Shown: positions 8,997 through 23,796 of the stretch, piece after piece
Layout: the number at the start of each line of letters is the position of its first letter
How positions within the stretch are numbered: the stretch's first letter is position 1
Virus record (IMG/VR): IMGVR_UViG_2724679237_000010
Coordinates: 1-26,568 of that record
Reading direction: 5' to 3' (one strand)
DNA length: 26,568 bases
DNA from: a virus
Taxonomy: Duplodnaviria > Heunggongvirae > Uroviricota > Caudoviricetes
Translations under genes and position numbers: made by a program
Notes under the pieces: model-generated
Database searches by the model: none
What the model was told of the DNA's origin: nothing
What the model saw: the letters and a program-made list of their open reading frames with translations, nothing else

Positions 8997-9899
8997 TTAC
9001 GCCATTGGTTGGTTCGGTTGTTGTGTTTCCCCGTCCGGACATATATGAGTGTGTCCGTTATACGTTGTGCGGACTTCAGTTATTGTGCCTTGTCGATCCT
9101 GCACCTCTTGTTCTGCTAACACACTACCGCGAGTTGTGATATTACCGGTTCCACCGTTATCCCCAGTGACAGAAATATCGTTACGGAATGTCGCTAATTT
9201 ATCTACAATTAATGTCTCGGTGATATGCGTTGGACCAGCTAGTGTTATCCCACCCGGAGCCCACGCACTGATTGTTTGAGCTGTCAGCGATATTCTGTTC
9301 GCAGCAGTAACACTAACAGAACTCGTTGCTATAACGTTCACTAAATCAGCATGTGCGTTAATTGTATCTGTCGCTGTGACATTAATAATATCAGCGTCCG
9401 CGTTAATTAATTTCCCGCCATGGATATTAACTACATTTTCGCTATTAATAGTAACATCTGCGCGTCCAAATATTTCTATTTCAGACTCACCGAGTATTTT
9501 TACCACGCCGTCCGGTACGCCCTGCCATGTCAGAGTGTGATTTTTTGTGTTATACGTCATCGTAGCCCCGTCACAGTATGCAGTGACATGATCATGGGGG
9601 TCATTGCTTGGCGGAGCTTTGTCGTCAATGTGCAGCCCGAGCATAACTACACCGTTCCGCGTATCCCCACCCTCAGAAACAACAGTAACGGGATCGCCCA
9701 CTGATGGGGCGCTCCAGTCCACGCGCTCCGATGTCGCGTGCGTGAACCATTGTAGCCAGCCCGATTGGTGTTCTCCACCAAACGACACGCGACATCTTGG
9801 AGGATTCATCTGAACTGCAGCTATGGTGCCGCGTTTAACTGAGTCACGCAGCCGGCGAGCGTTCTCCGCGGAGGCGTATTCATCGTCCGATTGGGCCAT
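8997..9899 (-). CDS. Baseplate spike / assembly protein V (P2 gpV-like) with extended C-terminus
   Basis: 300-aa ORF. The N-terminal region (...RCRVSFGGEHQSGWLQWFTHATS...) matches the gpV signature (P2: RCRVQTGG...DWLQWLTH). The C-terminus carries a His-x-His motif (YNGHTHICPDG). Confidence 0.85.
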   Translation of the reverse strand: MAQSDDEYASAENARRLRDSVKRGTIAAVQMNPPRCRVSFGGEHQSGWLQWFTHATSERVDWSAPSVGDPVTVVSEGGDTRNGVVMLGLHIDDKAPPSNDPHDHVTAYCDGATMTYNTKNHTLTWQGVPDGVVKILGESEIEIFGRADVTINSENVVNIHGGKLINADADIINVTATDTINAHADLVNVIATSSVSVTAANRISLTAQTISAWAPGGITLAGPTHITETLIVDKLATFRNDISVTGDNGGTGNITTRGSVLAEQEVQDRQGTITEVRTTYNGHTHICPDGETQQPNQPMA

Positions 9900-10416
9900 A
9901 GTAGTCGCTCTCGTGTTCTGCGCCGATATCTGGCGCTATTCCGACGTATATATTTTTCAGGGTTCCCTGTGAGGGATAATCGAAAATATCGGGACCAACG
10001 CCTACAACCTGCGTGAACGACACGCACTGAACTGAATGCGAACCGACTGACTGTCCGTTTTTAATCCAGTCACACGGTTCCGCGTCGCTGAATTTTGCCG
10101 GTTTAGTTCCGGGACCGAACATTCGCCCATTAATCCAGCTCGTCATATAGAGCGCTGCATTCTGCGATTTCAGTCCGTACTGATCAGCCGCAAACTCCCG
10201 CAGCAAATACAAATTACACGACAGCTCGACTGACTGAATTGAACCCGACACAGGCTCATCACTCTGTGACCAGTTGCTGATTTCCAGGAACAGAGCTGGC
10301 GTTTCAAATCCAGCCGGAATTTCCGGATAAATACCGAACGTTTTGATGAACGGTATTTGTAAAACAGCGCCTTTAACGCAATCTAAATATTCGTCAAATG
10401 CATCCAGTCCGCTCAT
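9880..10416 (-). CDS. Hypothetical virion protein (possible tail completion / sheath-terminator analogue)
   Basis: 178-aa ORF between the head-tail joining genes and V, overlapping V by 20 nt. Function assigned from position only. Confidence 0.45.
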   Translation of the reverse strand: MSGLDAFDEYLDCVKGAVLQIPFIKTFGIYPEIPAGFETPALFLEISNWSQSDEPVSGSIQSVELSCNLYLLREFAADQYGLKSQNAALYMTSWINGRMFGPGTKPAKFSDAEPCDWIKNGQSVGSHSVQCVSFTQVVGVGPDIFDYPSQGTLKNIYVGIAPDIGAEHESDYYGPIGR

Positions 10417-11093
10417 AATCGTCTACCTGTTTTTGGGTCTACGTGGACATTACCTTTCACGCGACCACGCAAGTCCTGTTCAAAAAAACCCATGAACACG
10501 GTGCCAATATTTTCAAAAATATAATCATCGATAGCATCCTCCAGCGCTTCGTGCACCGGTACGCGAGCCTCTTCGATTCCTCCGCGAGCCAGTCGAATCC
10601 AGACACTTTTCGCACCGTAGCGTTTCGCTACGAATGAATCGGGCCAGCTCAGCATCGCCAGCCCTGCACTTTTGGGTGTAAAAGTTGCCCCTCGAGCGCC
10701 TTTTTTTGTTTTCAAAAATTGACCAGTCTCTGGATTGCGAGGCTGCTTTTGCTTCCTGGGATTTTGTAATCGCCCCTTTAGCTCAGATACACGGAAATCG
10801 TTCAGGCCGTACCATAGCTTTACGCTGCTCAGATCTCCTGCCCCTTCTTTTGTAAAATTACGGCGCTTAATGAACGGCTTGATTCGTTTATCTACGGCCT
10901 TATGATTTTTAGCTGCCAGTGCAGTCAAAATTATTCCTGCTGAAATTCGGTGCATATGTTTTGCAGTTCGGTTCAGCGCCCGGTTGTATGCCATCAACAT
11001 CTGATGTTGCGTCGCGCTGATTTCGACTCTGAGCTGCTCCAGCGCCGAAACATCGATATCGAACATCTGCGCGTTACTACGTAAATCGGCCAC
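10413..11093 (-). CDS. Hypothetical virion morphogenesis protein (basic)
   Basis: 226-aa ORF, translationally coupled to the next gene. It sits where a lambda-type head module would carry tail-joining genes; no recognisable motif. Confidence 0.45.
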   Translation of the reverse strand: MADLRSNAQMFDIDVSALEQLRVEISATQHQMLMAYNRALNRTAKHMHRISAGIILTALAAKNHKAVDKRIKPFIKRRNFTKEGAGDLSSVKLWYGLNDFRVSELKGRLQNPRKQKQPRNPETGQFLKTKKGARGATFTPKSAGLAMLSWPDSFVAKRYGAKSVWIRLARGGIEEARVPVHEALEDAIDDYIFENIGTVFMGFFEQDLRGRVKGNVHVDPKTGRRL

Positions 11094-11123
11094 GGTTCCC
11101 CCTTAGTAGGACCGCGGTCCCAC

Positions 11124-11504
11124 TTAGTATTTTGAATACTCGCTGTTTTCGCTGGACGTATGAGGCTCTAAAAAAATATTCGTGAGCCCGACACCGTCTG
11201 GCTGAGACTCTTTAACCACGTAATCGGTCCAGCCAGACCAGGTAACAGAGCCGTCAGGTTCGATGCTGCGCTGCTTTGAAACCCGGACGACGTCACGTGC
11301 AACAATGCCGGCGACGTCGTCTGAGAGCGCTGTCAGACTCGTTACTGTACCGGTAATAAAACCAGCGTGAGGAACGTCAACGCGCGCGTAAGGCTCGTTG
11401 AAAATAGCGATAATGGGGTCGGTTTTACCGCGTAATTTAACGGGCCGTCCCCACTCCAGAATCATCTCCTCATCGCCGGCCCGGAGGTCATCGTAGTAGC
11501 TCAT
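11124..11504 (-). CDS. Head-tail joining protein (lambda FII-like)
   Basis: 126-aa ORF immediately after the FI-like gene with an ATGA overlap. Weak by-eye similarity to lambda FII; lambda gene order supports it. Confidence 0.5.
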   Translation of the reverse strand: MSYYDDLRAGDEEMILEWGRPVKLRGKTDPIIAIFNEPYARVDVPHAGFITGTVTSLTALSDDVAGIVARDVVRVSKQRSIEPDGSVTWSGWTDYVVKESQPDGVGLTNIFLEPHTSSENSEYSKY

Positions 11505-11914
11505 AGAGCGTAAACGTGATCAGCTGCGATGAGGTCTGCAACCTCTGGTGAATCAACAACAATTTCACGGCCAGCGGCAACAATCTCGCGAACGCGACGC
11601 CCGTTCACGTAGTGATATACATCCAGCGTGTTACGCAGCTTAACGCGGCGCGTAGCGGGAGACAGTTCTGGTTGTGACGTCGTGCTCGCGATTGACGGTT
11701 GTTCTGCGCTGTCATCATCAGTTTCATCTGATGCGTTCGCATTAATGTTGGCATCACTCGCATCACCGGATTGCTCGTTCAGAATATCGAGTTCTGACTC
11801 AGCGCCGGCGGCGATTGATTCCAGCTCAGCAATAGTCCCGCTGCGCGGTAATTCGCGACCGAGCTGGGCGCTCAGATCGTCAATGCGCGCCAGCAATTCT
11901 GTTTTTGTGCTCAT
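11501..11914 (-). CDS. DNA packaging protein (lambda FI-like)
   Basis: 137-aa ORF. The N-terminus (MSTKTELLARIDDLSAQLGRELPRSGTIAELE) resembles lambda gpFI (MTKDELIARLRSLGEQLNRDVSLTGTKEELA), followed by an acidic linker; it sits right after the major capsid gene. Confidence 0.6.
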   Translation of the reverse strand: MSTKTELLARIDDLSAQLGRELPRSGTIAELESIAAGAESELDILNEQSGDASDANINANASDETDDDSAEQPSIASTTSQPELSPATRRVKLRNTLDVYHYVNGRRVREIVAAGREIVVDSPEVADLIAADHVYAL

Positions 11915-11946
11915 GCTAATTCCCTAAAAAAAGAGCCTTTCGGCTC

Positions 11947-12981
11947 TTACGCGATTTTTACGACGACAAACGCGTCGGCGTCGGTGAGGACCATCGCTGG
12001 CGCGGATTGAGTCATTGTCTGCGTCACTGCCGGATCGCCGGTCGTGGTCCAGACTTTTGGATAACGCGTGGCCTCGCAGATACCCTCTTTCAGCGCGTCC
12101 TCGTCCTGAATTGCGCCATAGGTGCGGAGTCCGCGGTTCTTTGTGTTGCCCAGAATCATCGTGTTATCCGGCATATAACGCGTTTCAGCGCCTGTTACCG
12201 GGTCGATGTATTGCCCCTTGTAGACAAACAGCGCCGTATCGCCGTAATAACCCTTAAAGCTGACAACGTCGCCCAGATTTTTCAGCGCGACTTCGAGCTG
12301 GCTGTTTGAGCCGCGTCGCGTATCCAGTGCCGTCCAGAATTTTTTAAAACGCTTCAACTGCTTCCAGGCTTTACCGTCCATGATGATGACGTTAACCGCA
12401 CCGGAGGCGAGGTCCGCATAGGATTCGATATCGTCGCTCGGGTCATATGTTTCCGCGTCCTGCGTAGACCAGGCCGTCGAACCAGACTGAGTGACGTTAT
12501 TCGTCGCGCTGCGGCTCATGTCTATCTCATAGGTCTCGATATTGCTGCCGGAGACAGTGTATTTACCGTACAGAACAGCCTGTACCGCCTGATATTCCTC
12601 GAGCTGGCTGATGCTGAGCTCTTCATCGAGCAGGTTCTGCATGATGAGTCTGGCACGACGAATTACGGGAGTTAATGGCTCACTAATCGGCTCCCCGCCA
12701 GCGCGCTTGATGCTCATATTAGGATTGATCGTGTGTTTTGGTTTCGTGTAACCCGGCTTAAAATGGTTCGTTGAATAGCCACGAGTGCGGTCAACTTTTC
12801 CGGTGATCATCGGCGCGCAATACACGGCCATGTTGACCTTGCCCGGGATTTTATCCAGAAAAACCTCTTCGCTTGTAAACGTGTAGGTCTCACGGAAAAA
12901 CAATCTTAAAAACAACGGATTGAACTTAAATACCTGCTGCGTTGCAGTAATCAGTTCTGACGTAGTAAACGAATCGCTCAT
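11947..12981 (-). CDS. Major capsid protein (lambda gpE family)
   Basis: 344-aa ORF with several blocks near-identical to lambda gpE: FKFNPLFLRLFFRETY, PGYTKPKH, DTRRGSNSQLE, LPDNTMILGNT..RGLRTYG, ATRYPKVWTTTGDPA. Confidence 0.92.
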   Translation of the reverse strand: MSDSFTTSELITATQQVFKFNPLFLRLFFRETYTFTSEEVFLDKIPGKVNMAVYCAPMITGKVDRTRGYSTNHFKPGYTKPKHTINPNMSIKRAGGEPISEPLTPVIRRARLIMQNLLDEELSISQLEEYQAVQAVLYGKYTVSGSNIETYEIDMSRSATNNVTQSGSTAWSTQDAETYDPSDDIESYADLASGAVNVIIMDGKAWKQLKRFKKFWTALDTRRGSNSQLEVALKNLGDVVSFKGYYGDTALFVYKGQYIDPVTGAETRYMPDNTMILGNTKNRGLRTYGAIQDEDALKEGICEATRYPKVWTTTGDPAVTQTMTQSAPAMVLTDADAFVVVKIA

Positions 12982-13039
12982 TTATATATCCTGTATAAAA
13001 AAACCGCCCGGAGGCGGCTTGTTTTGAGTTTTTGGGCTA

Positions 13040-13372
13040 TCAGCCGACGCTGATTGGTGTTCCTGCGAACGCTGATTTCCGTTTGCTACTATCAGTTACA
13101 GTTCCCCAGTTAATCGCTGTATAACGAAACGAACCGGCTTTGTAATACGACAAATCGGCTGTACTCGCACCAGTTTTGACGGGTGTTGCTGTCAAACCAA
13201 CGGCCTTACCGACAGAGCCGTCCCACACTTTAAATGTACCGATTGACGCATCGACCATAATTGGCGTTAACCGCGGAACATCAATGCTGGCCGCAAAATG
13301 GCCAACGGCTGTAACAACGAGATCGGGCCCGAGGATAAAATCATCCGGGCTATACGTTTCTGTGGTCATCAT
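13040..13372 (-). CDS. Head decoration protein (lambda gpD-like)
   Basis: 110 aa, the same length as lambda gpD, with a similar C-terminus (..SFRYTAINW....SSKRKSAFAGTPISVG vs lambda ..TFRYEDVLW....ETKKRTAFAGTAISIV). Located between the C-like and E-like genes. Confidence 0.85.
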   Translation of the reverse strand: MMTTETYSPDDFILGPDLVVTAVGHFAASIDVPRLTPIMVDASIGTFKVWDGSVGKAVGLTATPVKTGASTADLSYYKAGSFRYTAINWGTVTDSSKRKSAFAGTPISVG

Positions 13373-14679
13373 TCATCCTCTAAAATTGAACGCCCTGCTG
13401 CTACCAGCATTGAGACGTTTGCGGTTGTTCCTGTTGCCGTTGTGCTGCCTGCATCCTGAATAGTCGCCGGTGATTCAGTGCTCATGAGTGTATCGAGCGC
13501 CGTTTCTGTCCGCGCCTGCGCAGTTTGCGGTGCTGCCGCGAGGACCACACGCGCCTGCTCGAGCGTCATCCCTGGTACTCCGGCGAGCGCTTTTGCCTGC
13601 TCCTCGCGCCCGACGGCCTCGGGACAGTTGATAATAGCCATCACACGCGCCAGTTCGTTCGACGCCGCGTCCGCGCGAATCTGCTCCGTGTTGAACTCAA
13701 CCGGCGCGACCGTAGTCGTGACCGCGGTTTGTTCTGTGGTCGTGGTCTCCGCCGTGGTTTCTGTTGTACCTGGCATAAATCGCTCCATTTTTGGTTTCAG
13801 TGCGTCGGCCATCACTGCGATAGCGTCCGCGTAATTCACGAGTTGATCAGCGAGACCCGATTTAATCGCATCCGCACCGATAAAGACTGCGGCCTCTGTG
13901 GCCAGCACCCTGGATTTTTTCAGCCCGGTATAATCCGAGACTTTTTGCGCGAACTGCTCGCGTGTGCTGTTAATACTCAGCTGGAATTCGTCGCGAACGT
14001 CGTCGGGCAATTGGGAATACGGGTTCCCGTCGACCTTGTGCGCACCGGCGTAAATCAGCGTCACGTCAACGCCGGCAATCTCCAGCGCTTTTTCGACGCA
14101 GCGGTGAGCCATCAGGACGCCGATTGAACCAACTGTGCCGGTCTGCGTTATCAGCCGGCGCGAACACGCTGACGCCAGCAAATAGGCGGCGCTGCAGGCT
14201 GTATCACTGGCCAGCGCCCAGACTGGTTTTTGCTCTCGCGCCCGGGCGATTAAATCAGCAGTATCAAACGCGCCGGCAACCTCACCACCTGGGGAGTCAA
14301 TATCCAGCAAAATCCCCTTAACATCGGGATCAGAAATCGCCTGCTGCAGGCGTTTTACGATTCCGTCGTAACCGCTCATACCGCTAACCGGATTGATATA
14401 ACCCAATTTATGAACCAGTGTCCCGGTAACCGGCAGAACAGCTATACCACGCTCCACGCGGTACGATTTCTGACGTGTTCGCTCGCTGCTGTCCCACCCC
14501 ATCGCGAGGGCGTTCATTTCATCGCTGTTCATTACCTCTCCAGACGCTGTATCAATCAGTCGCCCGGTACCGAACCGGTCGCTCAGCGCAGAAAAAAATA
14601 CCCGCGCGTAGGCGGGCTCCAGCAAAAGCGGTTGATTGAACGCCCTGGCGGCGAGGTGCGGAAAATTGTTCCACGGCAT
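13369..14679 (-). CDS. Head maturation protease / scaffold (lambda gpC-like, S49 SppA-family peptidase)
   Basis: 436-aa ORF with an S49-peptidase-like core (..GILLDIDSPGGEVAGAFD.., ..ASDTACSAAYLLASAC..) and a Thr/Ala/Glu-rich C-terminal tail that could serve as a scaffold region. It follows the portal gene with a start/stop overlap. Confidence 0.85.
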   Translation of the reverse strand: MPWNNFPHLAARAFNQPLLLEPAYARVFFSALSDRFGTGRLIDTASGEVMNSDEMNALAMGWDSSERTRQKSYRVERGIAVLPVTGTLVHKLGYINPVSGMSGYDGIVKRLQQAISDPDVKGILLDIDSPGGEVAGAFDTADLIARAREQKPVWALASDTACSAAYLLASACSRRLITQTGTVGSIGVLMAHRCVEKALEIAGVDVTLIYAGAHKVDGNPYSQLPDDVRDEFQLSINSTREQFAQKVSDYTGLKKSRVLATEAAVFIGADAIKSGLADQLVNYADAIAVMADALKPKMERFMPGTTETTAETTTTEQTAVTTTVAPVEFNTEQIRADAASNELARVMAIINCPEAVGREEQAKALAGVPGMTLEQARVVLAAAPQTAQARTETALDTLMSTESPATIQDAGSTTATGTTANVSMLVAAGRSILEDE

Positions 14680-16250
14680 CAGTTACCTCCCCAGCCGTTA
14701 TCGTTGGTATTTGAGGGGTGAGATACAGACCATGACGGTTCGCTCAGCCCCATTTCACGCCGGCGCTGAATTTCGTATTCCTGTTGCTCCATAACCTCCT
14801 CGTAATCCTGTCCCTGCAGCGCCAGTTCGTTCTGATACGTGCTGAGGCCAGTTGTGATACGCATTGCACTCTCCTGAACCTCTTTCAGTCCGTCGATGGC
14901 CATGCGACCTGCACCGATCCAGAGCGCGTTCGTCCAAGAGTTCCGCGCCTCATAAAACGACCGGACCGCTGAGCGTGGCAGGGTGATAACTCCGCGCGCC
15001 AGAGCTTCCTCAAACCAGCAGCAGAACATCAGTGACGCCTGTCGTGCGGCGATAAAACGTCGACGGCCCATGAAAAAACGCCAGCTCACGTTTGCGCTGG
15101 CCCGCGCGCTGGAGTAACTGACCTGGCTGTAGTCCCGACTCAGTTCCTCATATGACGCGCCGACGCCAGCGGCAACGTAACGCAGGAGTGATTTTTCCAG
15201 CGAACTGAAACCAGCATCAGCATTCTGAGCGGTCTGTAAACTGAGTTTGTCGCCGGGATGCAGGTGAGGCACTTTCACGCCACCGAGCTTGATATTTGCG
15301 CCGTTGTAGTACGTCACGTAACTCTGAATAAACGAATTCAGCGGGTTAGAGTCGCTATCGGTACCCGTGCCGGCGATATATTCAAACGCCTGCTGGCTAT
15401 CGAGCTCTGATTCGATTGTCGCGGCGTACATCGCCTTCACGATGGCGCTCTGCAGCTGTGTTTGCTGCAACGTATCGAGCATTTTCAGCCGCTCCATTAC
15501 GCTGTAAAAAATGTTATCTCCGCGGGTTTGTCCGTCCTCGAGCGGCTCGAATATGTGAATGAATGCGTGTCTGCCGCTGCTGAGCTGCGCCGGGATGCGC
15601 CGGCATTTACCAACTCCACCGAGGGGGTAGGTGTCCTCGGCTATCCAGTACCCAACCGCGGCCCCGTTTTTATCAATATCAACACCGGCACGGCGAAATT
15701 GAGTGTCAGCTGTGTAACCGGGGTTTCTAATTCGTTTCGGTGAGACCATTTTGAATCGCGTCCGAAAAACGCTGCCGGCGCTGCTCTCCCACACCGGTTG
15801 TACGCAGGTTTCACCGTTGAACGCGTGAGTGGCCACGCCTTCGCGGATCATCATTGTGAACGTCCGTTTCCGCTCGATATCAATCGTGCAGTGAGGGTCC
15901 TCGGCGTATTCAGTCCACGCGACCTCAACGTCACGCGCCAGCGCCCTGGCGTCCTCGCGAGATATCCCGATGTAACGCCAGTTAGGGCGATAACTCAACT
16001 TAAACAGATTGCCGACGATATGATCCTGATGCAGCTGCACGGCGTTCGACGCGACGCCGTTATTACGAACGAGATCGTCTGCTCGCGCGTTACCGCGATA
16101 AAAATTAGGCAGCAGTGCCGCATCGGCGCTTTGCTGTGGTGCATTCCAGTCAATCAACTGGCCACCGAAGCCGGGACCGCCGCCGTTATACCCCGCGTAA
16201 CGGCGTAGTGGCGTTTTACCGTCAGGCCCGAGCAGCTGCTGAGCAGTCAT
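14679..16250 (-). CDS. Portal protein (lambda gpB family)
   Basis: 523-aa ORF between the W-like and C-like genes, with tight coupling on both sides. Size and position match lambda gpB. Confidence 0.85.
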   Translation of the reverse strand: MTAQQLLGPDGKTPLRRYAGYNGGGPGFGGQLIDWNAPQQSADAALLPNFYRGNARADDLVRNNGVASNAVQLHQDHIVGNLFKLSYRPNWRYIGISREDARALARDVEVAWTEYAEDPHCTIDIERKRTFTMMIREGVATHAFNGETCVQPVWESSAGSVFRTRFKMVSPKRIRNPGYTADTQFRRAGVDIDKNGAAVGYWIAEDTYPLGGVGKCRRIPAQLSSGRHAFIHIFEPLEDGQTRGDNIFYSVMERLKMLDTLQQTQLQSAIVKAMYAATIESELDSQQAFEYIAGTGTDSDSNPLNSFIQSYVTYYNGANIKLGGVKVPHLHPGDKLSLQTAQNADAGFSSLEKSLLRYVAAGVGASYEELSRDYSQVSYSSARASANVSWRFFMGRRRFIAARQASLMFCCWFEEALARGVITLPRSAVRSFYEARNSWTNALWIGAGRMAIDGLKEVQESAMRITTGLSTYQNELALQGQDYEEVMEQQEYEIQRRREMGLSEPSWSVSHPSNTNDNGWGGN

Positions 16251-16480
16251 AATCGAACTCCCACGGGACGGCGGCGTCCCGTACTCAGACCGAGCTGTGA
16301 TTTCAGCTCGATAATGTACGTTCGGAGCTGTTCAATACTAGCCTGGGAGTACTGATAGCTCCGGTTATTTCCCGCTGAATCGCCGTGAGACAGCGATACA
16401 GTCGATCTACCCGTTAATAATTTGTGCAGGGCAATTTCAGCTTCCAGTAGCCGTTCTGTTAAAACCTCGCGCGACGTCAT
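16247..16480 (-). CDS. Head-tail connector / head completion protein (lambda gpW-like)
   Basis: 77-aa ORF between the large terminase and portal genes with ATGA overlaps. Resembles lambda gpW (..LHKLLTGRS.., ..YIIELKSQLG.. vs lambda ..LHDLMTGKR.., ..YIAELEVQTG..). Confidence 0.75.
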   Translation of the reverse strand: MTSREVLTERLLEAEIALHKLLTGRSTVSLSHGDSAGNNRSYQYSQASIEQLRTYIIELKSQLGLSTGRRRPVGVRL

Positions 16481-18441
16481 GAGCTCCCTCCGAGCATTCT
16501 GGCCATCTCCTCGAGAGACAGTTTGTTTTGTGATTTTTTCCGTTGCTCAGCGAGCGTCTCGAGATTGAGCTGGAAACGAATTTTACTGATACGTAGCGCC
16601 GCCAGCGCGTATACCCAGCAGTCGAGCGCTTCATTTCGCCGGCCCTGGTTGTCCCAGCGATAAACGACGCGACCGTTAATCAGTTTCGGGATCAAAACTT
16701 CAGAGACGAGCTGTTTTGCCTCTGTCGTGCCGAATATTTCGTCGTCGTTGGGAAAATGAATCGCACCTGGTGTCGCCGATTTAGAATCGGGTTCCAGCGG
16801 CAGGCGCATTGCGAGCAAATCTTTTGCCGTATCAGTACCGATTAACGACAAATAGACTTTATTCGCGTTACGTGTACGCGGCATATTTACGACTGGCTGA
16901 CCGTATGAGCTCGCACCTTTAATTGGAATGACCCACAGCGGACCGAGTTTCAGCGAGCGGTTATAAACGACCTGCGCATCTATACCACCGGTATCCCACG
17001 CCCAGCGACTGACGCCGATTGTGGTTCCGTCGCTGCGTCGGTATTGTTTGCGAATCACACCGTCGACGCGCTGCAGCGTGTCCTCCTCGTCGTAGCGACC
17101 GAGAACGATGGTTTTATCAATCAACCAGCACTCTTCCTCGGCTCCCCAGCCCCATACGTAACACTCGTAGCGCCCGGACGTCTGAGAGTCGATGCCACCG
17201 GTCAGATAGACAACACCGTCAGGAACCTGGCTGGCGTATTTTTCCCGGCGATTAACGAGAATATCGTGCTCCAGCTGCTCGCTGGCTACGTCGCTCCAGA
17301 GTTCGCCGAGCGTCGTGTTATGAAACGTCTTCTCCTTGAGCGGGTCGCCTTTCGCTTTCAGCCACTCGCTGACAATCTCGCCCCAGCCGTCGAGATTCAG
17401 TGAATACAGGGCGTTTATCACGATCGCAGCGTGTTTCGGTGCGCGAACGACGCCTCCGTCATGATCAAAAAAATGAATGCCGTCCCGGGTCCAGGTGCAG
17501 TCCTCGGCTATCCAGCGCCCTCCGAGCTCCATTTTTTCGAGGTCGCGATAGTAAAAATGCTCCGGGCAGTGGCAGCACTGGTAATACGCGGACGACGATT
17601 TCGCCTCATTGGTCTGTAAGCTGTTATCCCATTTGAGGCCGTATTCGATACCGTCGAGACCAAATACCAGGGTCTGCTCCTCGCTACAATGCGGACACTT
17701 CAGGTAAAAACGAAATGTCAGATCAGCAGCGTCTTCCAACATTTCTATATGGCTTTTGCCGGTAACGGTCGGCGTCGAACCGAAAATTGCTTTTGGGTAC
17801 GCTGCACCTTTAATTCGAACGAGCGCCAGCTCGATGGGCGAGCCCTCGCCCTTGCCTTTTTTTACAACCTCCAGCGGCCAGCCGTCGACTTCGTCACCCT
17901 CGACAACCTGTTTCGTCAGTCGCCGGAAATTTCCTGGTGTACTCGCGCCACGAAAATCGATAATCGCCCCGTTCATCTCTTTACGCTGGAGATTGTTACG
18001 CTCGTTGCTTTTATCCCAGTCGGGGAAAATTTTCTGAATCACCGGCATTTCGGCGATAGCGGGGTCAACCTCGTCGGCGACAAATCCATCCGATTCGTCA
18101 TCGATAGGCTGATAGACCACGGCACTACGTTTTTTGTGCTCAGCGAAATAGAGCAGCGCCGCGACGAGTATTTTTGTATAACCGAGACGAGCTGATTTGC
18201 GAACAGACACTATTTTTATCGCGTCGTTTGTCATCATATTCAACATCACAATCTGGACCGGCTGAGTCGTCCAGTGACCCGCAATATGGCTGGAGCCTTC
18301 GGGGAGGTAAAAATATTTATCAGCCCACTCAACCCCCGTCATCGGTATCGTCACGCGCAAGGGATTCAACCCTGTCGAGATCGCGTTCGATATCGCTGAC
18401 ATCGTAATCGCTGAAGTCGACTCGTATGTCTGCCAGTTCAT
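16477..18441 (-). CDS. Terminase large subunit (lambda gpA family)
   Basis: 654-aa ORF with many lambda gpA-like blocks: VEWADKYFYLP, KSARLGYTK, YLTGGIDSQ, VWGWG, IPIKGASSYGQPV.NMPR.RN, GTDTAKD, NEALDCWVYALAALRIS. The start may lie at an internal Met, since the longest ORF overlaps the small-subunit gene by 113 nt. Confidence 0.92.
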   Translation of the reverse strand: MNWQTYESTSAITMSAISNAISTGLNPLRVTIPMTGVEWADKYFYLPEGSSHIAGHWTTQPVQIVMLNMMTNDAIKIVSVRKSARLGYTKILVAALLYFAEHKKRSAVVYQPIDDESDGFVADEVDPAIAEMPVIQKIFPDWDKSNERNNLQRKEMNGAIIDFRGASTPGNFRRLTKQVVEGDEVDGWPLEVVKKGKGEGSPIELALVRIKGAAYPKAIFGSTPTVTGKSHIEMLEDAADLTFRFYLKCPHCSEEQTLVFGLDGIEYGLKWDNSLQTNEAKSSSAYYQCCHCPEHFYYRDLEKMELGGRWIAEDCTWTRDGIHFFDHDGGVVRAPKHAAIVINALYSLNLDGWGEIVSEWLKAKGDPLKEKTFHNTTLGELWSDVASEQLEHDILVNRREKYASQVPDGVVYLTGGIDSQTSGRYECYVWGWGAEEECWLIDKTIVLGRYDEEDTLQRVDGVIRKQYRRSDGTTIGVSRWAWDTGGIDAQVVYNRSLKLGPLWVIPIKGASSYGQPVVNMPRTRNANKVYLSLIGTDTAKDLLAMRLPLEPDSKSATPGAIHFPNDDEIFGTTEAKQLVSEVLIPKLINGRVVYRWDNQGRRNEALDCWVYALAALRISKIRFQLNLETLAEQRKKSQNKLSLEEMARMLGGSS

Positions 18442-18895
18442 TCAGGGCTATCGCCAGCTCCTCTCGTAATACACTGCTCGCCTCCTGCGGCATTTCAGGC
18501 CACACCTTTTTCAATCGTGGTGGCCACGACTCGACGCGGGTACGTAATTCAACGGCGACGCGAGATACAGCTACGCTGATTAATTCAATTGGCGCGTAGC
18601 GTTTAGCAAGAATGCGACGTTTTACTCGTGCCATCAGGATTCGCTCCTGTCGTTCCTCATTTTTCAGCCACTGCTCGCGATTTTTTTCGGGAGAATTGTC
18701 CCCCACTTCCGGTTCGTCAGTACCAATTGTGTCGCGTCTATTACTCCGGAGATAATGAATATAAAAATGGCGCCAGGCATCAAGGTCCCAATCGCCACGT
18801 CCCTGTGGGACTGGAGCTCCCGGAAGTTTTGCAAGATCGCGCAGACGACGATCAGATAGCAGTAAATGTGCTGCGACCTCAGCCTGACTTGCCAT
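18329..18895 (-). CDS. Terminase small subunit (Nu1-like)
   Basis: 188-aa ORF directly upstream of the large subunit. N-terminal HTH-like segment (AEVAAHLLLSDRRLRDLAKLPGAPV) resembles the Nu1 N-terminus; GAGGA lies 7 nt before the ATG. Confidence 0.65.
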   Translation of the reverse strand: MASQAEVAAHLLLSDRRLRDLAKLPGAPVPQGRGDWDLDAWRHFYIHYLRSNRRDTIGTDEPEVGDNSPEKNREQWLKNEERQERILMARVKRRILAKRYAPIELISVAVSRVAVELRTRVESWPPRLKKVWPEMPQEASSVLREELAIALNELADIRVDFSDYDVSDIERDLDRVESLARDDTDDGG

Positions 18896-19248
18896 TAAAA
18901 ATCCTCACCGGAACCGGAAATACCCAAAATGAAAAAATACTAAAAATGAGTGAGTTTTTGCGCGTCTACCGACCCTCGGTGTTTTGGATTTCGGAAAGGA
19001 CCCGCGACCAGGGGGCTATCTCCCTTTCAGGACAGGAATCGGGGGCTCGCATCAGGTTCATCAAACTCGACTGTAGCCTCGCGGCGTACTTATTTGCATA
19101 CCTCAGCTTTGTGTATCTGATTATCAGCATAAGCTTTCACTTTGGCAGCGAGCCATCCTTTTGCGCTGTATCGATAGGCTACCGAACAAGTTTTCGATAT
19201 ATGTATATATCTTGAACTTATTGATATCCTTACAGAAAAAAAACAGCC

Positions 19249-19509
19249 ATGAGCACACAAAAAATGAACAGAGAAAAAACTGAAGCCTTAATGAGCGTAA
19301 TATTAAAAGAAGCTGACCCAAAAAAGTTTCCTGAGAAGTTATCAGAGGACGCCATCGTATCTTTTTATCGTGCGAACTCCTCTTATCTAAATTGTTCAAC
19401 TTTACGAGAATGGTTAAGCGGCGAAGCAGAGCCTTCAGATGAGATACTTCAGGAGATTATGGTTCAGAACAACTGGCGCGCAACAAAATGGTCAAATCAG
19501 TTACCTTAA
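19249..19509 (+). CDS. Hypothetical protein (moron, opposite strand to the late operon)
   Basis: 86-aa ORF in an AT-rich segment between the lysis cassette and the terminase genes, followed by a GCCGCC/GGCGGC hairpin at 19524-19548. Ribosome-binding site is weak. Confidence 0.4.
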   Translation: MSTQKMNREKTEALMSVILKEADPKKFPEKLSEDAIVSFYRANSSYLNCSTLREWLSGEAEPSDEILQEIMVQNNWRATKWSNQLP

Positions 19510-19777
19510 CCTGTTGAATGTGTGCCGCCTTGAAACAAAAAAGGCGGCCTCTCGTTTAAGTAAACGTTTCTTTCATCAGCCTCCAGCTCTTTGGCACATT
19601 GCGCAGTTGTTTTTTATACGTAGGCGAGCTGTTGCGACGCTCAGTCCCTGCGCGTCACACCATTCTTTCGGTGATACACATGATTTGACGTACTCGGACA
19701 GGAACTGCTTCTGAAGCTCAAGCCCAGTCCCGGTTTGCTCATGTAATTAAATCCTACTGTATTCTCATGGTGCCCAG

Positions 19778-20119
19778 ATGTCGTCTATGCTTTTAACTCG
19801 AACATTCAATGAAGAGAAATGCTCTATGGTTATTGGTATGCAGGAATCAAAAAATTGCCCTGTATGCGGCTCTGATGCCACGTGGACAAATCACGATACG
19901 TGCTGGAAAATTCATTGCAGTGGTTTTTGCGGTGATTTTTTAATCACAACCATTACGATAAATTATCTGAAGGGCGATGCACTAAGGCGTCTTGATGCCA
20001 TCGATCTATTAAAAGAGCCAACAACCCTCAAGACACCTTTAACAAACAAAATCCTTGCTGAATATGCTCGTACAAAACATCCCGTGCACATCTTTGAAGG
20101 TCACTATCCGGGCTACTAG
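19778..20119 (+). CDS. Hypothetical Cys-rich protein (possible zinc-ribbon); start may be the internal Met at 19826
   Basis: ORF contains CPVCG...C..HC..FC, a zinc-ribbon-like arrangement. AT-rich; converges on the next minus-strand gene at a palindrome. Confidence 0.4.
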   Translation: MSSMLLTRTFNEEKCSMVIGMQESKNCPVCGSDATWTNHDTCWKIHCSGFCGDFLITTITINYLKGDALRRLDAIDLLKEPTTLKTPLTNKILAEYARTKHPVHIFEGHYPGY

Positions 20120-20394
20120 TCAGTACTAGTAACTTTCGAAATAGGAGAAATTTTAGATGTGTGATAATTCATCTCGTCGATAGTCTGAGAAATTAACTCA
20201 CTCGCGCCATTTGCAACTGCAACGCGATAATGCGGTCCATTCCATCGACTAAAATCGGATCGTTCATAAATTACTACCTCATCCCCCACAGAAACCCTTA
20301 ACTCAGTGCTACCTACAGGTTCAATAGCGGAATTAGAATAAATGTCTTCAACACGACCGTGAAAAGGCCCACCAACGAACAAAAACTGTGACAT
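20116..20394 (-). CDS. Hypothetical protein
   Basis: 92-aa ORF with a good ribosome-binding site (AGGAAA about 7 nt before the ATG); no recognisable motif. Confidence 0.5.
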   Translation of the reverse strand: MSQFLFVGGPFHGRVEDIYSNSAIEPVGSTELRVSVGDEVVIYERSDFSRWNGPHYRVAVANGASELISQTIDEMNYHTSKISPISKVTSTD

Positions 20395-20532
20395 ATAATT
20401 TCCTATTAAAAAATAACCAGTTAAATCGGCATTTAAAAGTATGTCATATTTATGATTCTGTCTTTAGCACCTTTGTGTGGTCAGGTTGTCTGGGCCAAAT
20501 GACCAATCATCAATTCATTAAGATAAATTACC

Positions 20533-20727
20533 CTATTTTCCAACGGGGCATGAAGCCACTGCCCCGGTTGAATCAATACAACCACCGTTCGCAGTAGTAA
20601 TCTTCGTACCCGGCGCGATCATCACGTGTTTAATGCTGCTGCCGTCAGCGCGAGTCGCTTCGGTGTATGTCGAATGTGTACATCCTGCCAGCGTGAAGAA
20701 CGCGACAGCTAAGAGAAGTTTTTTCAC
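20533..20727 (-). CDS. Small lipoprotein (signal peptide + lipobox LAGC); candidate o-spanin-like lysis component or exclusion lipoprotein
   Basis: 64-aa ORF starting MKKLLLAVAFFTLAGC... (type II signal peptide with lipobox Cys), beginning 7 nt after the endolysin stop. Confidence 0.6.
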   Translation of the reverse strand: MKKLLLAVAFFTLAGCTHSTYTEATRADGSSIKHVMIAPGTKITTANGGCIDSTGAVASCPVGK

Positions 20728-20734
20728 GTTTTAC

Positions 20735-21214
20735 CTACGCTTCTGAGATAGATTTCTCAGCATTCACGAATGGAAGTGATTGTGGAACATCCGTTTGACC
20801 TGCTGGCCAGCGATAGCCGGTAACGCGTGAGCTCGGAAAAGCTTTGATATTTACTTCATCTGCCTGGTTACCCCCCAAAATCATTAAATCCCCGGCGGCA
20901 TTTTTCCCGACAACAAAGCCAACGTGGCCACCGCCAGACCGGGACAGAATAGCAATGCATCCATAGGCGGGTTCCTTCAGTTCATTACCCCAATCGAGAT
21001 AAGAATTCGCAGACTCAAAACGCGTTGAGCGAATACCCGCACGTTCCAGCATTGCCCCGGTGAAAGCAGCGCACCACGGGGTTTCATCATCCTTAATGCC
21101 GCCGCGTTTGATATCTTTCCAGTACTGCACAATTTCTGCAGCATGTTGCTTCCCTTTCATTTCCCGAATGCCGAGATTTTTTCGTGCCTCAATTAGCCAT
21201 TTAGGATCGGTCAT
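20735..21214 (-). CDS. Putative endolysin, CHAP / NlpC-P60-like peptidase (TIGR02594-like)
   Basis: 159-aa ORF with a Cys...His pair in CHAP-like context (ETPWCAAFTGAML ... GGGHVGFVVG). Lies downstream of two holin-like membrane protein genes. Confidence 0.65.
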   Translation of the reverse strand: MTDPKWLIEARKNLGIREMKGKQHAAEIVQYWKDIKRGGIKDDETPWCAAFTGAMLERAGIRSTRFESANSYLDWGNELKEPAYGCIAILSRSGGGHVGFVVGKNAAGDLMILGGNQADEVNIKAFPSSRVTGYRWPAGQTDVPQSLPFVNAEKSISEA

Positions 21215-21486
21215 TACCTGTCTCCTGTTATTTTTGAAATATTCCCTCGTGCCCGCCAGACAGCAATACAGATGGTGAGATTGAGAAAGAACTCTGCGGG
21301 ATCAACCTGCGTATATTTCCCGTAAAAAATTCGTAGGGCTATCCACGCAGCAGACAGAATCGCCAGGTAAGCAGTTAGTGAGATAAAAAAACGATAGCGG
21401 CCTGTTTTTTGAAAAAACATCAACCGTAGTGCCAGCATCAGACAGATAATTGCATTGGCATTGATGAGGACAGAGTGCAGGGTCAT
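21214..21486 (-). CDS. Holin-like / antiholin membrane protein
   Basis: 90-aa ORF with 2-3 predicted TM segments, between the holin-like and endolysin genes with overlapping start/stop. Confidence 0.5.
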   Translation of the reverse strand: MTLHSVLINANAIICLMLALRLMFFQKTGRYRFFISLTAYLAILSAAWIALRIFYGKYTQVDPAEFFLNLTICIAVWRARGNISKITGDR

Positions 21487-21869
21487 TATTTCATCCCCTT
21501 ATCTGATTTCCATAAACGAGCTTGTGACATGATCCGCAACAGTGATGTAACGCTGATTACTGATGCAACCAGTGCACCAATGGCGGGAGAGACTTTTACT
21601 GTTACGGGAGGGTTCAGGTGACTCAGCACCGCGTTCAGAATACCGGTAATGATTGCTGACGCTGTCTCAGCGCAATACACACCGCCAACAAACGAAATGA
21701 GTGCGAAAATAACCTGCTTCCAGAATCGATGCTGCCCGGATGACAACACATAGAGAGCTGCGCCTGCCAGCGCACAGATCATCACTGCAGGTGTTGCCTC
21801 AGGAAATAACGCAGCAAACGTCACCCCCGCCGAGCCAGCAGCAACGCCAGCGGTTAGAGGTTCAGACAT
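21486..21869 (-). CDS. Putative holin (multi-TM small membrane protein)
   Basis: 127-aa ORF with 3 hydrophobic segments and a charged C-terminus; first gene after the Q-like gene and a promoter/terminator-like element. Confidence 0.55.
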   Translation of the reverse strand: MSEPLTAGVAAGSAGVTFAALFPEATPAVMICALAGAALYVLSSGQHRFWKQVIFALISFVGGVYCAETASAIITGILNAVLSHLNPPVTVKVSPAIGALVASVISVTSLLRIMSQARLWKSDKGMK

Positions 21870-21883
21870 GATTTTTCCTGATT

Positions 21884-21913
21884 CAGAAACGACAAAACCC
21901 CGCCGTGGCGAGG
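21884..21913 (-). terminator. Intrinsic terminator-like hairpin between the Q-like gene and the holin gene (tR'-like)
   Basis: On the minus strand: CCUCGC-CACG-GCGGGG (6-bp stem with one G-U pair) followed by UUUUGUCGUUUCU. Confidence 0.45.
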
Positions 21914-21949
21914 TTCTTAGAAATTTGGCAATATACCAAATTAGCGTTA

Positions 21950-21978
21950 AATATGGCCTATTTTGTTCGGTTTCGCAA
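21950..21978 (-). promoter_or_regulatory. Candidate late promoter (pR'-like)
   Basis: Minus-strand TTGCGA (-35-like, plus 21973-21978), 17-nt spacer, CATATT (-10-like, plus 21950-21955), directly downstream of the Q-like gene stop. Confidence 0.3.
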
Positions 21979-21981
21979 GCA

Positions 21982-22653
21982 TTATACGTAAACGTCGTCT
22001 AAATGGTTCTGATAATGATGCAAAGTTGCAAGAAGTGCCATTTCATCAAGTGCTCTCACCGCCTCTTTCATTCCTGCCCAGTGCGGGGAGTATGTTTCGC
22101 ACCAGGTGGAACGAGAAACAGACAACATTCCAGCTAGCGCAGACCCGGCCATCTCCTTAAAATCCTCGCGTTTATTTGCTGCTGCAACCGCCTGCACGGA
22201 CAACCACACCAACGATAGCAGGCGCTTAACTACTTTTCTCTGAGTTGACGCGGGGATGTGTCCTTTATAGCGACTCCAGACAGCCTCACAAATAGCTGTT
22301 TGGTGTTTGAACGCCAGGTTACCACCGTAGCAATAACGCAACCACGCTTGCTGACTTGCATCCAGCGAGTTCACAGAACGCCGCCAGGATGAATCAGCAA
22401 ATTCAAAATCATTCATCGGCGGCGCGGGGCGACGTCTGCTGAAACTTTCCAGAGCGTAAACTGGCGTAACCAGAGCATCAACGGTCCGGTCCTCCAGCTG
22501 CACACGGTGAATATGTTTGCGTGGGTATGCGTTTTTGTCTGCCGGTGGGTGCTCACACAATGCTTCCAGCTGCCCCTTAGAACCACCAGACAAATCCCGC
22601 AATGCAGCGCGCAGTTTTATGCGGGTATATTCCAATAAATACTCGTTACTCAT
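21982..22653 (-). CDS. Putative late-gene antiterminator (Q-like), assigned by position
   Basis: 223-aa ORF immediately upstream of the promoter/terminator-like element and lysis cassette, and downstream of nin-type genes. No sequence motif recognised. Confidence 0.45.
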   Translation of the reverse strand: MSNEYLLEYTRIKLRAALRDLSGGSKGQLEALCEHPPADKNAYPRKHIHRVQLEDRTVDALVTPVYALESFSRRRPAPPMNDFEFADSSWRRSVNSLDASQQAWLRYCYGGNLAFKHQTAICEAVWSRYKGHIPASTQRKVVKRLLSLVWLSVQAVAAANKREDFKEMAGSALAGMLSVSRSTWCETYSPHWAGMKEAVRALDEMALLATLHHYQNHLDDVYV

Positions 22654-23539: not shown

Positions 23540-23616
23540 GTTTAACTCCAGGTGGCGCGGCAGTGTTCAGAAAATGGTGCCGGGTGTTCAATCCAACACC
23601 GATATTATACCGTGTT

Positions 23617-23796
23617 TTACGCGTCAGGGGGTGTAATAGTATATCCAGCTATTTCTGCCAACTCGAGAAACGCCATCAGGCTGGCAATCCGTTCATCATC
23701 GGTCAGAACACGCACACCAACGATGTGTCCGTCCTTACGCTTGATAACAGCCCGGCATGTTTCCGGTAGTTCGCCTATAGATTCTTGAATATTCAT
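23617..23796 (-). CDS. Small hypothetical protein (59 aa), absent from the supplied ORF track
   Basis: I translated it by hand: MNIQESIGELPETCRAVIKRKDGHIVGVRVLTDDERIASLMAFLELAEIAGYTITPPDA. Strong SD-like AGGGGGAAG a few nt before the ATG. Confidence 0.4.
   Translation of the reverse strand: MNIQESIGELPETCRAVIKRKDGHIVGVRVLTDDERIASLMAFLELAEIAGYTITPPDA

What the first reader, a model, noticed from the sequence alone, without database searches (positions are those of the whole stretch)
8997..9899. Baseplate spike protein with a C-terminal extension and a His-x-His motif
At 300 aa the V-like protein is longer than P2 gpV (about 211 aa). Near its C-terminus it carries GHTHICPDG. Central spike tips of P2-type phages are known to coordinate a metal ion through HxH motifs, so this is probably the membrane-piercing apex; the extra middle region may be an added beta-helical domain.
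Basis: partly seen in the sequence, partly recalled or inferred. Interest (0 to 1): 0.28.

Follow-up and report, generated by a model that had tools for sequence, protein, structure and literature searches.

The report
Long P2-type phage tail spike
This gene encodes the needle-like central spike of a P2-type contractile phage tail in an E. coli-type prophage; it is longer than the textbook P2 spike because its shaft is longer, its histidine motif is the known iron-binding tip, and overall it is an ordinary member of a well-known family.

Summary
A 300-aa ORF lies at 8997..9899 on the minus strand, and GHTHICPDG is residues 282-290.

It is a gpV-type central spike:
- Pfam OB domain PF04717 and NCBIfam TIGR01644 both score above cutoff.
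- The closest solved structures are P2 gpV (3qr8) and the R2 pyocin spike (4s37).
- The gene heads a V-W-J-I-fibre block, as in P2.

A profile-profile alignment with P2-type spikes (probability 100%, E 4e-44) puts H283/H285 on P2's Fe-binding H197/H199. The HxH is invariant in 20 aligned homologues.

The extra length is not an appendage beyond the tip. About 78 residues (136-213) are inserted in the beta-helical shaft. A 13-residue element (265-277) sits just before the HxH.
- The 13-residue element is common: 44 of the top 150 relatives have it, at a median length of 207 aa.
- It matched no solved structure by sequence.
- The long shaft is rare: 4 of 150 relatives reach 260 aa.

Cys287 is conserved in this clade only.

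The gene occurs in 448 of 5426 complete E. coli genomes and is already annotated as baseplate assembly protein V. The trimer and metal binding could not be tested. Interest is low.

The parts
8997..9899 (-). Gene for the gpV-type baseplate central spike, 300 aa plus stop
   Evidence: ORF list and translation. TIGR01644 scores 101.9 bits against a 46.75 cutoff. The same 903-nt CDS is annotated in ON470624 and in 448 E. coli genomes.
9630..9833 (-). N-terminal OB-fold domain (residues 23-90), which docks the spike to the hub and tube
   Evidence: Pfam PF04717, 3e-12, 47.2 bits. Aligned to P2 gpV residues 9-128 and pyocin PA0616.
9114..9608 (-). Shaft (residues 98-262): presumed intertwined triple beta-helix, about 165 aa. 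The P2 helix is about 94 aa (residues 97-190).
   Evidence: hhalign to the P2 family. Extended chain without helices, pLDDT 70-82 over residues 100-220. Lag-8 hydrophobic periodicity z=2.67. Weak sub-threshold similarity to VgrG helices (DUF2345 E 0.013; 8gra, 6u9e). P2 domain limits come from 10.1101/2023.02.25.529910.
9261..9494 (-). Main insertion relative to P2-type spikes (residues 136-213, 78 aa) within the shaft. This is the source of most of the extra length.
   Evidence: These columns are unmatched in hhalign. The 198-aa homologue P0036 lacks 77 residues starting at 136. Other homologues lack 15, 23 or 38 residues starting at 174-177.
9069..9107 (-). Pre-apex element EVQDRQGTITEVR (residues 265-277), with invariant Asp268 and Arg277. 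It is absent from P2, Mu and phiCTX.
   Evidence: It is a 13-residue insertion in hhalign. The pattern D..G[ST]M...R..YN.H.H occurs in 44 of 150 representatives. Its invariant columns are shown. No PDB sequence matched at E<=10.
9000..9068 (-). Apex domain (residues 278-300, TTYNGHTHICPDGETQQPNQPMA)
   Evidence: Aligned with P2 apex residues about 192-211 and with the Mu gp45 tip. G290 is invariant and P295 nearly invariant.
9045..9053 (-). H283-T284-H285, the predicted ligands of the Fe histidine cage (three copies in the trimer)
   Evidence: Invariant in alignments A1, A3 and A4. Aligned to P2 H197/H199.
9039..9041 (-). Cys287, a clade-specific conserved residue two positions after the second His
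   Evidence: Cys in 30 of 34 close homologues while both flanking positions vary. In the wider family it is Cys in only 2 of 98, and mostly Gly. The same HTHxCPDGET tip is found in rV5-like spikes.

Best explanation
The ORF encodes the central spike (gpV type) of a P2-like contractile tail in a prophage that combines a lambda-like head with a P2-like tail.

By homology with P2 gpV, three chains form one trimer. The N-terminal OB-fold domains plug into the baseplate hub at the end of the tail tube. Residues about 98-262 wind into a triple-stranded beta-helical shaft. The last about 23 residues close into a pointed apex, in which three copies of H283-x-H285 cage one buried iron ion. On sheath contraction the spike is driven through the host outer membrane as a mechanical point and ends up in the periplasm.

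Compared with P2, the shaft carries about 78 extra residues. The apex is preceded by a 13-residue element with invariant Asp268 and Arg277, and it carries a clade-specific Cys287 just beyond the His cage.

Shown here: family membership, alignment of the motif to P2's Fe ligands, conservation, the location of the extra length, and gene context.

Inferred, not shown: the trimer, the beta-helical fold of the inserted region, iron binding, and membrane piercing.
For: - Family: PF04717 OB domain. TIGR01644 at 101.9 bits against 46.75. PHROG baseplate assembly and spike families. phmmer and profile hits to 3qr8 and 4s37.
- Fold: the Foldseek best hits are 3qr8 and 4s37 at 2e-11. They are followed only by spikes of contractile systems: VgrG, Mu gp45 (9ki1_V) and phi92 (3pqi).
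- Apex: hhalign gives probability 100%, E 3.9e-44, and aligns H283/H285 with P2 H197/H199. The tail alignment with P2, Mu, phiCTX and bridging sequences such as P0151 (...YNGHTHPGDSGGTTG...) agrees. The HxH is invariant.
- Literature: a C-terminal HxH identifies an Fe-binding Apex. The P2 Apex is residues 191-211. The spike is delivered to the periplasm (10.1101/2023.02.25.529910; PMC12407873).
- Context: gpW/gp25, gpJ, gpI and the fibre lie immediately downstream on the same strand, in P2 V-operon order.
- Tip protein: no PAAR-type hit among the 17 tail- and head-module ORFs scanned. The 74-aa ORF 1048..1272 was scanned only against NCBIfam. The module has no unassigned gap. This fits the rule that HxH spikes lack a separate tip.
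- Extra length: it maps to the shaft.
Against: - No trimer model could be made. The monomer AF2 model has mean pLDDT 68 and only 43-54 over the last 40 residues, so the apex geometry is unconfirmed.
- Pfam's Apex model (PF18946) and Phage_spike model (PF18715) do not hit the query. The Apex model is weak, though: P2 gpV itself scores below its cutoff.
- The 8-residue periodicity is modest (z=2.67). Indels among homologues (15, 23, 38 aa) are not clean multiples of 8.
- In P2 the Apex is dispensable for infection in the laboratory (10.1101/2023.02.25.529910). 'Needed for piercing' is therefore not established even for the archetype.
- The sheath gene in this window is frameshifted at an A8 run. 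If that is real, this particular tail cannot work.
Confidence: 0.92

Rival explanations
1. The extra 80-90 residues form a distinct functional domain, such as an enzyme or a receptor-binding module, inserted into the spike as the lysozyme domain is in T4 gp5. On this view they are not simply more shaft.
For: The protein is about 90 aa longer than P2 gpV. It lies in the top few percent of family lengths: only 4 of the top 150 relatives reach 260 aa. Pfam's P2 'Phage_spike' helix model does not match.
Against: - No Pfam, NCBIfam or PDB domain hit in residues 130-262. The only signals are weak matches to VgrG and DUF2345 beta-helices.
- The model shows an extended chain without helices or a compact domain there.
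- The sequence is low-complexity, with alternating small and hydrophobic residues and a period near 8.
- Homologues vary by 15-77 residue indels exactly here while keeping both ends. That is expected for a repetitive shaft, not for a folded domain.
Confidence: 0.04
2. The HxH is not a metal site at the tip. It could be a chance motif, or a registration clamp like those in tail fibres, with the true tip supplied by another protein.
For: - About 0.4 HxH are expected by composition, and a second, non-conserved HxH exists at residues 102-104.
- HxH cages also occur in fibres away from the tip (PMC12407873).
- The AF2 apex is low confidence.
Against: - H283/H285 are invariant across all alignments.
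- They align to P2's Fe ligands at the same distance from the C-terminus: 15 aa here, 12 in P2.
- No PAAR-like or other unassigned gene is present in the tail module.
Confidence: 0.03
3. In this particular genome the gene is a relic. The prophage tail is defective because the sheath is frameshifted, so the spike is encoded but never used.
For: The sheath is split into ORFs 4432..5451 and 5358..5933 by a 1-nt deficit in an A8 run, relative to the intact 500-aa sheath of ON470624. Database relatives include V-W frameshift fusions (P0002, P0030), so decay does occur in this prophage family.
Against: - A homopolymer indel is a classic sequencing error.
- The V ORF itself is intact, and its product is 95% identical to the common E. 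coli form (P0001).
- All other tail genes scanned are intact.
- This rival concerns activity in one genome, not what the protein is.
Confidence: 0.2

Closest known systems
Bacteriophage P2 gpV (PDB 3qr8, 3aqj), the iron-loaded membrane-piercing spike
   Same: OB-fold N-terminus (35% identity over residues 12-128; 1.2e-17). Shaft then apex. The HxH aligns to H197/H199. G..T..P tail after the motif. First gene of a V-W-J-I-fibre block. No separate tip gene.
   Different: 300 aa against 211. About 78 extra residues in the shaft. The 13-aa D..G.T...R..YN element before the HxH is absent in P2. The tip is ICPDGET where P2 has PGDSGGTT. P2's helix model PF18715 does not match. The host element has a lambda-like head, not a P2 head.
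R2 pyocin spike PA0616 (PDB 4s37)
   Same: Same OB domain and the start of the helix (2.3e-14 over residues 8-147). Foldseek 2e-11. Listed with P2 gpV as an HxH spike in 10.1101/2023.02.25.529910.
   Different: 185 aa with a short shaft. It belongs to a tailocin, whereas this element carries head and packaging genes.
Mu gp45 and its relatives (PDB 9ki1_V; Salmonella phage ST64B Sb19)
   Same: Spike with OB, beta-helix and apex. The apex holds Fe, and also Ca in Mu (PMC11915804). ST64B Sb19 ends GKTMAEMRTTYNGHTHKENGDGGGITDKPGQPMS, which is the same pre-HxH element as here.
   Different: The N-terminal domain is of the Mu gp45 type and is not detected in the query by Pfam. Mu gp45 itself lacks the pre-HxH element (...STDKHIHRGDSGGTTGPMQ).
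phi92 gp138 and rV5-like central spikes (PDB 3pqi; PhiTE 9cuy_Y; Escherichia phage MaxTheCat bas57_0022)
   Same: Central spikes with a C-terminal HxH. The rV5-like spike ends YKGHTHSCPDGETSGPH, sharing 12 of 16 residues, Cys included, with the query's YNGHTHICPDGETQQP.
   Different: The rest of the protein is only distantly related (Foldseek 3pqi E 5.7e-3, 11% identity). phi92 gp138 itself has HTHPVRG with no Cys. The short tblastn match is not significant on its own (E 0.2).
T4 gp5 + gp5.4 and T6SS VgrG + PAAR
   Same: The same mechanical role and a triple beta-helix shaft. There are weak structural and sequence echoes of VgrG helices.
   Different: Those spikes lack a terminal HxH and are capped by a separate PAAR-type tip protein (PMC12407873). 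No such gene is found here, and there is no lysozyme or gp27-like domain.

Membership tests
P2 gpV-type baseplate central spike (TIGR01644 phage_P2_V) | Scores above the curated cutoff of the NCBIfam model | tested here: met
   101.9 bits against a 46.75 cutoff, but only model positions 2-159 of 192 are aligned. The P2 control scores 246.9 bits. The short homologue P0036, which has the same apex, aligns over positions 3-191.
P2 gpV-type baseplate central spike | N-terminal OB-fold domain (Pfam PF04717) | tested here: met
   47.2 bits against a 23.8 cutoff, residues 23-90. Aligned to 3qr8 and 4s37.
P2 gpV-type baseplate central spike | HxH near the C-terminus, homologous to the Fe-binding His cage (P2 H197/H199) | tested here: met
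   hhalign pairs H283/H285 with H197/H199. They are invariant in A1, A3 and A4. The criterion comes from 10.1101/2023.02.25.529910.
P2 gpV-type baseplate central spike | Match to the Pfam Apex motif model PF18946 | tested here: inconclusive
   No hit at E<=10 for the query. The model has only 23 positions, and P2 gpV itself scores 18.9 bits, below the 20.8 cutoff. Close relatives P0040 and P0151 score about 15 bits.
P2 gpV-type baseplate central spike | P2-like helix segment (Pfam PF18715 Phage_spike) | tested here: not met
   No hit for the query. P2 scores 97.4 bits. The shaft sequence has diverged from P2's. This model covers a P2-subgroup feature, not the whole family: phiCTX also lacks it.
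P2 gpV-type baseplate central spike | Intertwined trimeric beta-helix between the OB domain and the apex | tested here: inconclusive
   Only a monomer could be modelled. It shows an extended chain with pLDDT 70-82 over residues 100-220. Lag-8 periodicity z=2.67. Foldseek aligns 170-290 columns to spike protomers.
P2 gpV-type baseplate central spike | Bound iron ion in the apex | not testable with these tools
   Needs metal analysis or an experimental structure.
P2 gpV-type baseplate central spike | Gene heads the baseplate block V-W-J-I-fibre | tested here: met
   gpW/gp25, Baseplate_J, Tail_P2_I and the fibre follow on the same strand. The P2 V operon order is V, W, J, I, H, G.
P2 gpV-type baseplate central spike | No separate PAAR-type tip protein | tested here: met
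   No PAAR hit in the tail ORFs scanned, and no unassigned gap in the module. The rule comes from PMC12407873.
Mu gp45-type spike | Mu gp45-type N-terminal domain | tested here: not met
   Pfam finds only PF04717 in the query. Mu gp45 (9ki1_V) appears only as a distant fold match, E 2.8e-6 and 15% identity.
T4 gp5 / VgrG spikes with PAAR tip | gp27/gp5 fusion or lysozyme domain, no terminal HxH, separate PAAR cap | tested here: not met
   None of these domains is found. A terminal HxH is present and there is no PAAR gene.

The most novel reading that the evidence does not exclude
The tip of this clade may be a structurally uncharacterised apex variant with two added features.

- A 13-residue collar with invariant Asp268 and Arg277 could form an inter-chain salt-bridge ring under the His cage.
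- A ring of three Cys287 thiols just beyond the cage could form a second axial metal site, occupying the place where Mu gp45 holds a second ion (Ca).

The same HTHxCPDGET tip in unrelated rV5-like E. coli phage spikes would then point to exchange of, or selection for, a particular tip chemistry on E. coli envelopes.
Probability: 0.12. Interest if true: 0.35.

Novelty: new member of a known kind. Interest (0 to 1): 0.12.

Why it matters
It matters little beyond correct annotation. It confirms that the gene is the tail's piercing spike with a fused iron-type tip, so no separate tip protein need be sought.

Two small points may interest phage structural biologists:
- Shaft length is a freely varying parameter in this family. 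This clade sits at the long extreme.
- About 30% of the closest gpV-like spike families carry a conserved D...R..YN element before the HxH that matched no solved structure by sequence. Here it is combined with a clade-specific Cys.

The prophage is common (about 8% of complete E. coli genomes, including O25:H4 strains), so any property of its spike would apply widely.

Tried and rejected
- AF2 monomer model from the 20-sequence alignment. Mean pLDDT was 68 and the last 40 residues scored 43-54. It is unusable for locating the motif in 3D. A trimer cannot be submitted with these tools, so I did not spend the second job.
- Pfam Apex (PF18946) as a direct test of the tip. The query does not hit it, but the positive control P2 gpV is itself below the cutoff, so the test does not discriminate.
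- A profile of the apex variant against PDB sequences. There were no hits at E<=10, so no solved template could be named for the 13-aa element.
- Tandem-repeat search on the gene's DNA. It found nothing, so the long shaft does not come from recent DNA duplication.
- The idea that shaft indels come in whole 8-residue units. The observed deletions are 15, 23 and 38 aa. The differences are 8 and 15, but they are not clean multiples, so I do not claim it.
- phi92 as a source of the Cys-containing tip. Its solved gp138 has HTHPVRG with no Cys.
- The long 129-aa form of the W ORF that overlaps V. I rejected it in favour of the 110-aa form starting at 8985, which matches the annotation in ON470624.

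Full report
**1. The observation**

The finding's coordinates hold a single 300-codon ORF on the minus strand (8997..9899, ATG start). The plus-strand translation is full of stops. GHTHICPDG is residues 282-290, the H283-T-H285 codons are at 9045..9053, and 15 residues follow the second His. P2 gpV, fetched from NC_001895, is 211 aa, so the length comparison is correct.

An HxH alone is not remarkable. With 11 His, about 0.40 HxH are expected by composition. A second HxH is present at residues 102-104, and its first His is not conserved. The C-terminal motif stands out because of its conservation and position.

**2. What the protein is**

- Pfam finds the spike OB domain PF04717 at residues 23-90 (47.2 bits, cutoff 23.8).
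- NCBIfam TIGR01644 phage_P2_V scores 101.9 bits (cutoff 46.75).
- PHROGs gives baseplate assembly and spike families.
- Against PDB sequences the only real hits are P2 gpV 3qr8 (1.2e-17) and the R2 pyocin spike 4s37 (2.3e-14). Both cover about residues 8-147. A family profile strengthens both to about 1e-26.
- The AF2 monomer model has mean pLDDT 68. Its best Foldseek matches are again 3qr8 and 4s37 (2e-11). Below them, every match down to E of about 6e-3 is a spike of a contractile injection system: VgrGs, Mu gp45 (9ki1_V), PhiTE, E217 and phi92 (3pqi).

**3. Context**

The next genes downstream on the same strand are gpW/gp25, Baseplate_J, Tail_P2_I and a tail fibre. This is the order of the P2 V operon. 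Further on come the sheath, tube, E-type chaperone, tape measure, gpU and gpD. Upstream come lambda-type head genes: FII-like attachment protein, FI and capsid E.

The region is 95.6% identical at the DNA level to Escherichia phages vB_EcoM-705R4, -569R10, -783R5 and -720R5, where the same 903-nt CDS is annotated 'baseplate assembly protein'. The gene occurs in 448 of 5426 complete E. coli genomes, always chromosomal, and PGAP names it 'phage baseplate assembly protein V'. So the protein is already correctly named in public annotation.

**4. Does the motif map to the apex?**

The literature states that P2 gpV is built of an OB domain, an intertwined beta-helix and a conical Apex (residues 191-211). 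Three copies of H197-x-H199 cage an Fe ion. The HxH is the only universally conserved feature of such spikes, and a C-terminal HxH can be used to identify an Apex (10.1101/2023.02.25.529910; PMC12407873).

I built an alignment of the query family (A1, 20 sequences) and one of P2-type spikes with P2 gpV as first row (A2, 23 sequences). hhalign gives probability 100% and E 3.9e-44. It aligns the query's TTYNGHTHICPD with P2's KVLHTHKHPGDS, so H283 pairs with H197 and H285 with H199.

A direct alignment of C-termini agrees. It includes Mu gp45 (...KHIHRGDSGGTTGPMQ), phiCTX, and bridging sequences that combine the query-type upstream element with P2's exact HPGDSGGTTG tail (P0151, P0134). It also shows an invariant Gly (G290) and a near-invariant Pro (P295). 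H283 and H285 are invariant in every alignment.

This is mapping by homology to a solved structure. The monomer model is uninformative at the tip (pLDDT 43-54), and a trimer could not be modelled with the tools available.

Pfam's 23-position Apex model does not hit the query. It also fails its own cutoff on P2 gpV (18.9 against 20.8 bits), so that negative carries little weight.

The literature's rule is that HxH spikes have no separate tip protein. Consistent with it, no PAAR-type hit appears in the tail ORFs scanned, and the module leaves no unassigned gap.

**5. Where the extra 89 residues are**

They are not a C-terminal appendage. hhalign shows two insertions relative to P2-type spikes: residues about 136-213 (78 aa) inside the shaft, and 13 residues (265-277, EVQDRQGTITEVR) immediately before the apex.

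*(a) The shaft insertion.*
- It has no domain hit. The only signals are sub-threshold similarity to VgrG-type helices: DUF2345 at E 0.013, and 8gra and 6u9e at E about 0.05-0.07.
- In the model it is an extended chain with pLDDT 70-82 and no helices.
- It shows a modest 8-residue hydrophobic periodicity: lag-8 autocorrelation 0.22, z=2.67, reached by 19 of 5000 shuffles.
- It is exactly where homologues differ in length. Deletions of 15, 23 and 38 residues start at residues 174-177. The 198-aa relative P0036 lacks 77 residues from 136 and 30 from 222, yet keeps the same OB domain and apex.
- There is no DNA tandem repeat, so it is not a recent duplication.

A scan of 1.84 billion cluster representatives found 3213 relatives. 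The whole 278-323 aa clade collapses into one 50% cluster (P0020), and the next hit drops to 1e-56 at 226 aa. The top 150 have a median length of 207 aa, and only four reach 260 aa. One of those, P0099 (289 aa), has lengthened its shaft independently with a different repeat of about 10 residues.

I conclude that the extra region is a lengthened beta-helical shaft and not a new domain. From general knowledge of T4 gp5-type helices (roughly 4.5-5 Å rise per strand), about 78 residues would add a few nanometres. I did not compute this.

*(b) The 13-residue pre-HxH element.*
- It is a common variant. The pattern D..G[ST]M...R..YN.H.H occurs in 44 of the top 150 representatives (median length 207 aa), with Asp268, Arg277, His283 and His285 invariant.
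- It also occurs on a Mu-gp45-type body in Salmonella phage ST64B Sb19. It is absent from P2, Mu and phiCTX.
- A profile of this variant finds no PDB sequence at E<=10, so its structure appears uncharacterised.

**6. Cys287**

Two positions after the second His, 30 of 34 close homologues have Cys, while the residues on either side vary freely. Three of the exceptions have Glu and one has Tyr. Across the wider family the position is mostly Gly (37 of 98), and Cys appears in 2 of 98.

A tblastn of the last 49 residues also picked up more than 100 rV5-like E. coli phage records (E 0.2 each, not significant alone). Their central spike ends YKGHTHSCPDGETSGPH, which is 12 of 16 identical to the query, Cys included. 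The solved relatives of that spike do not share the Cys: phi92 gp138 has HTHPVRG and PhiTE has SHTHGG.

Mu gp45 holds a second axial ion (Ca) in its apex besides Fe (PMC11915804). A second site formed by three Cys is therefore conceivable, but it is pure inference.

**7. Mechanism and caveats**

By homology the protein is the trimeric drill bit on the tube tip. It is driven through the outer membrane on sheath contraction and released into the periplasm, as shown for P2 gpV (PMC12407873). In P2 the Apex and its His cage are dispensable for folding and for plating in the laboratory. Only tip cross-section mattered (10.1101/2023.02.25.529910). The functional necessity of the motif is therefore unproven even in the archetype.

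In this window the sheath gene is split by a 1-nt deficit at an A8 run near position 5421, relative to ON470624. This may be a sequencing error or a real inactivating mutation.

**8. Verdict**

The protein is a new, uncharacterised member of a well-known family and is already correctly annotated in public genomes. Its long shaft is an extreme of normal family variation. Its apex belongs to a common sequence variant that matched no solved structure by sequence, with a clade-specific Cys. Interest is low.

Noticed in passing
window 4432..5933 (minus strand), site about 5413-5422: The tail sheath gene is split into two overlapping ORFs (5358..5933, 191 aa; 4432..5451, 339 aa). The cause is a 1-nt deficit at an A8 homopolymer, relative to the intact 500-aa sheath of phage ON470624. 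It is either a sequencing error or an inactivated tail.
   Followed up: partly
window 5945..7114 against L001 7655..9228: The fibre gene shares only its first ~440 nt (about 88% identity) with the related phage and then diverges. The 129-aa gene that lies between sheath and fibre in ON470624 has no counterpart here. This looks like a swapped host-range module.
   Followed up: partly
window 9588..9596 (residues 102-104): A second HxH (H102-D-H104) lies at the OB-to-shaft junction. H104 is nearly invariant across the family, but H102 is Asn in most homologues, so it is not a conserved HxH cage.
   Followed up: yes
window 8653..9042 and 8997..9042: The gpW ORF can be read from an ATG at 9042 (129 aa), overlapping the end of V by 46 nt. 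The related phage annotates the 110-aa form, which starts at 8985. Database proteins P0002 (415 aa) and P0030 (302 aa) are V-W fusions made by frameshifts just after the HxH motif into this upstream W frame.
   Followed up: partly
L005 1877..2554 (Escherichia phage MaxTheCat, rV5-like): The central spike of rV5-like E. coli phages ends YKGHTHSCPDGETSGPH. This is nearly the same Cys-containing tip as the query, on an otherwise very distant spike. It could reflect module exchange or convergence.
   Followed up: partly
L006 466..999 (Salmonella phage ST64B Sb19): A Mu-gp45-type spike carries the same pre-HxH element (GKTMAEMRTTYNGHTH) as the gpV-type query. Mu gp45 itself lacks it. Apex variants do not track the N-terminal domain type.
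   Followed up: partly
L003 568..1269 (Aeromonas phage 3) and representatives P0047, P0059, P0101, P0109, P0115, P0159, P0168, P0178: A subset of gpV-like spikes has no HxH. They end in a His/Cys-rich motif such as GAHVCAYTGKPHAACSGTV. Another subset ends abruptly in ...NSNHHxH. Both look like alternative tip chemistries within the family.
   Followed up: no
window 9880..10416 (minus strand): A 178-aa protein is encoded immediately upstream of V and overlaps its start by 20 nt. It has no Pfam or NCBIfam hit, only PHROG 1072 (unknown function). It is conserved in position between the tail-completion gene and V.
   Followed up: no
window 1..26568: The element is a mosaic. It has lambda-type packaging, head and head-tail joining genes (capsid E, FI, FII-like; by annotation of the related phage also terminase, portal B and protease C). 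These are joined to a P2-type contractile tail, with lambdoid lysis and Q-antiterminator genes beyond.
   Followed up: partly
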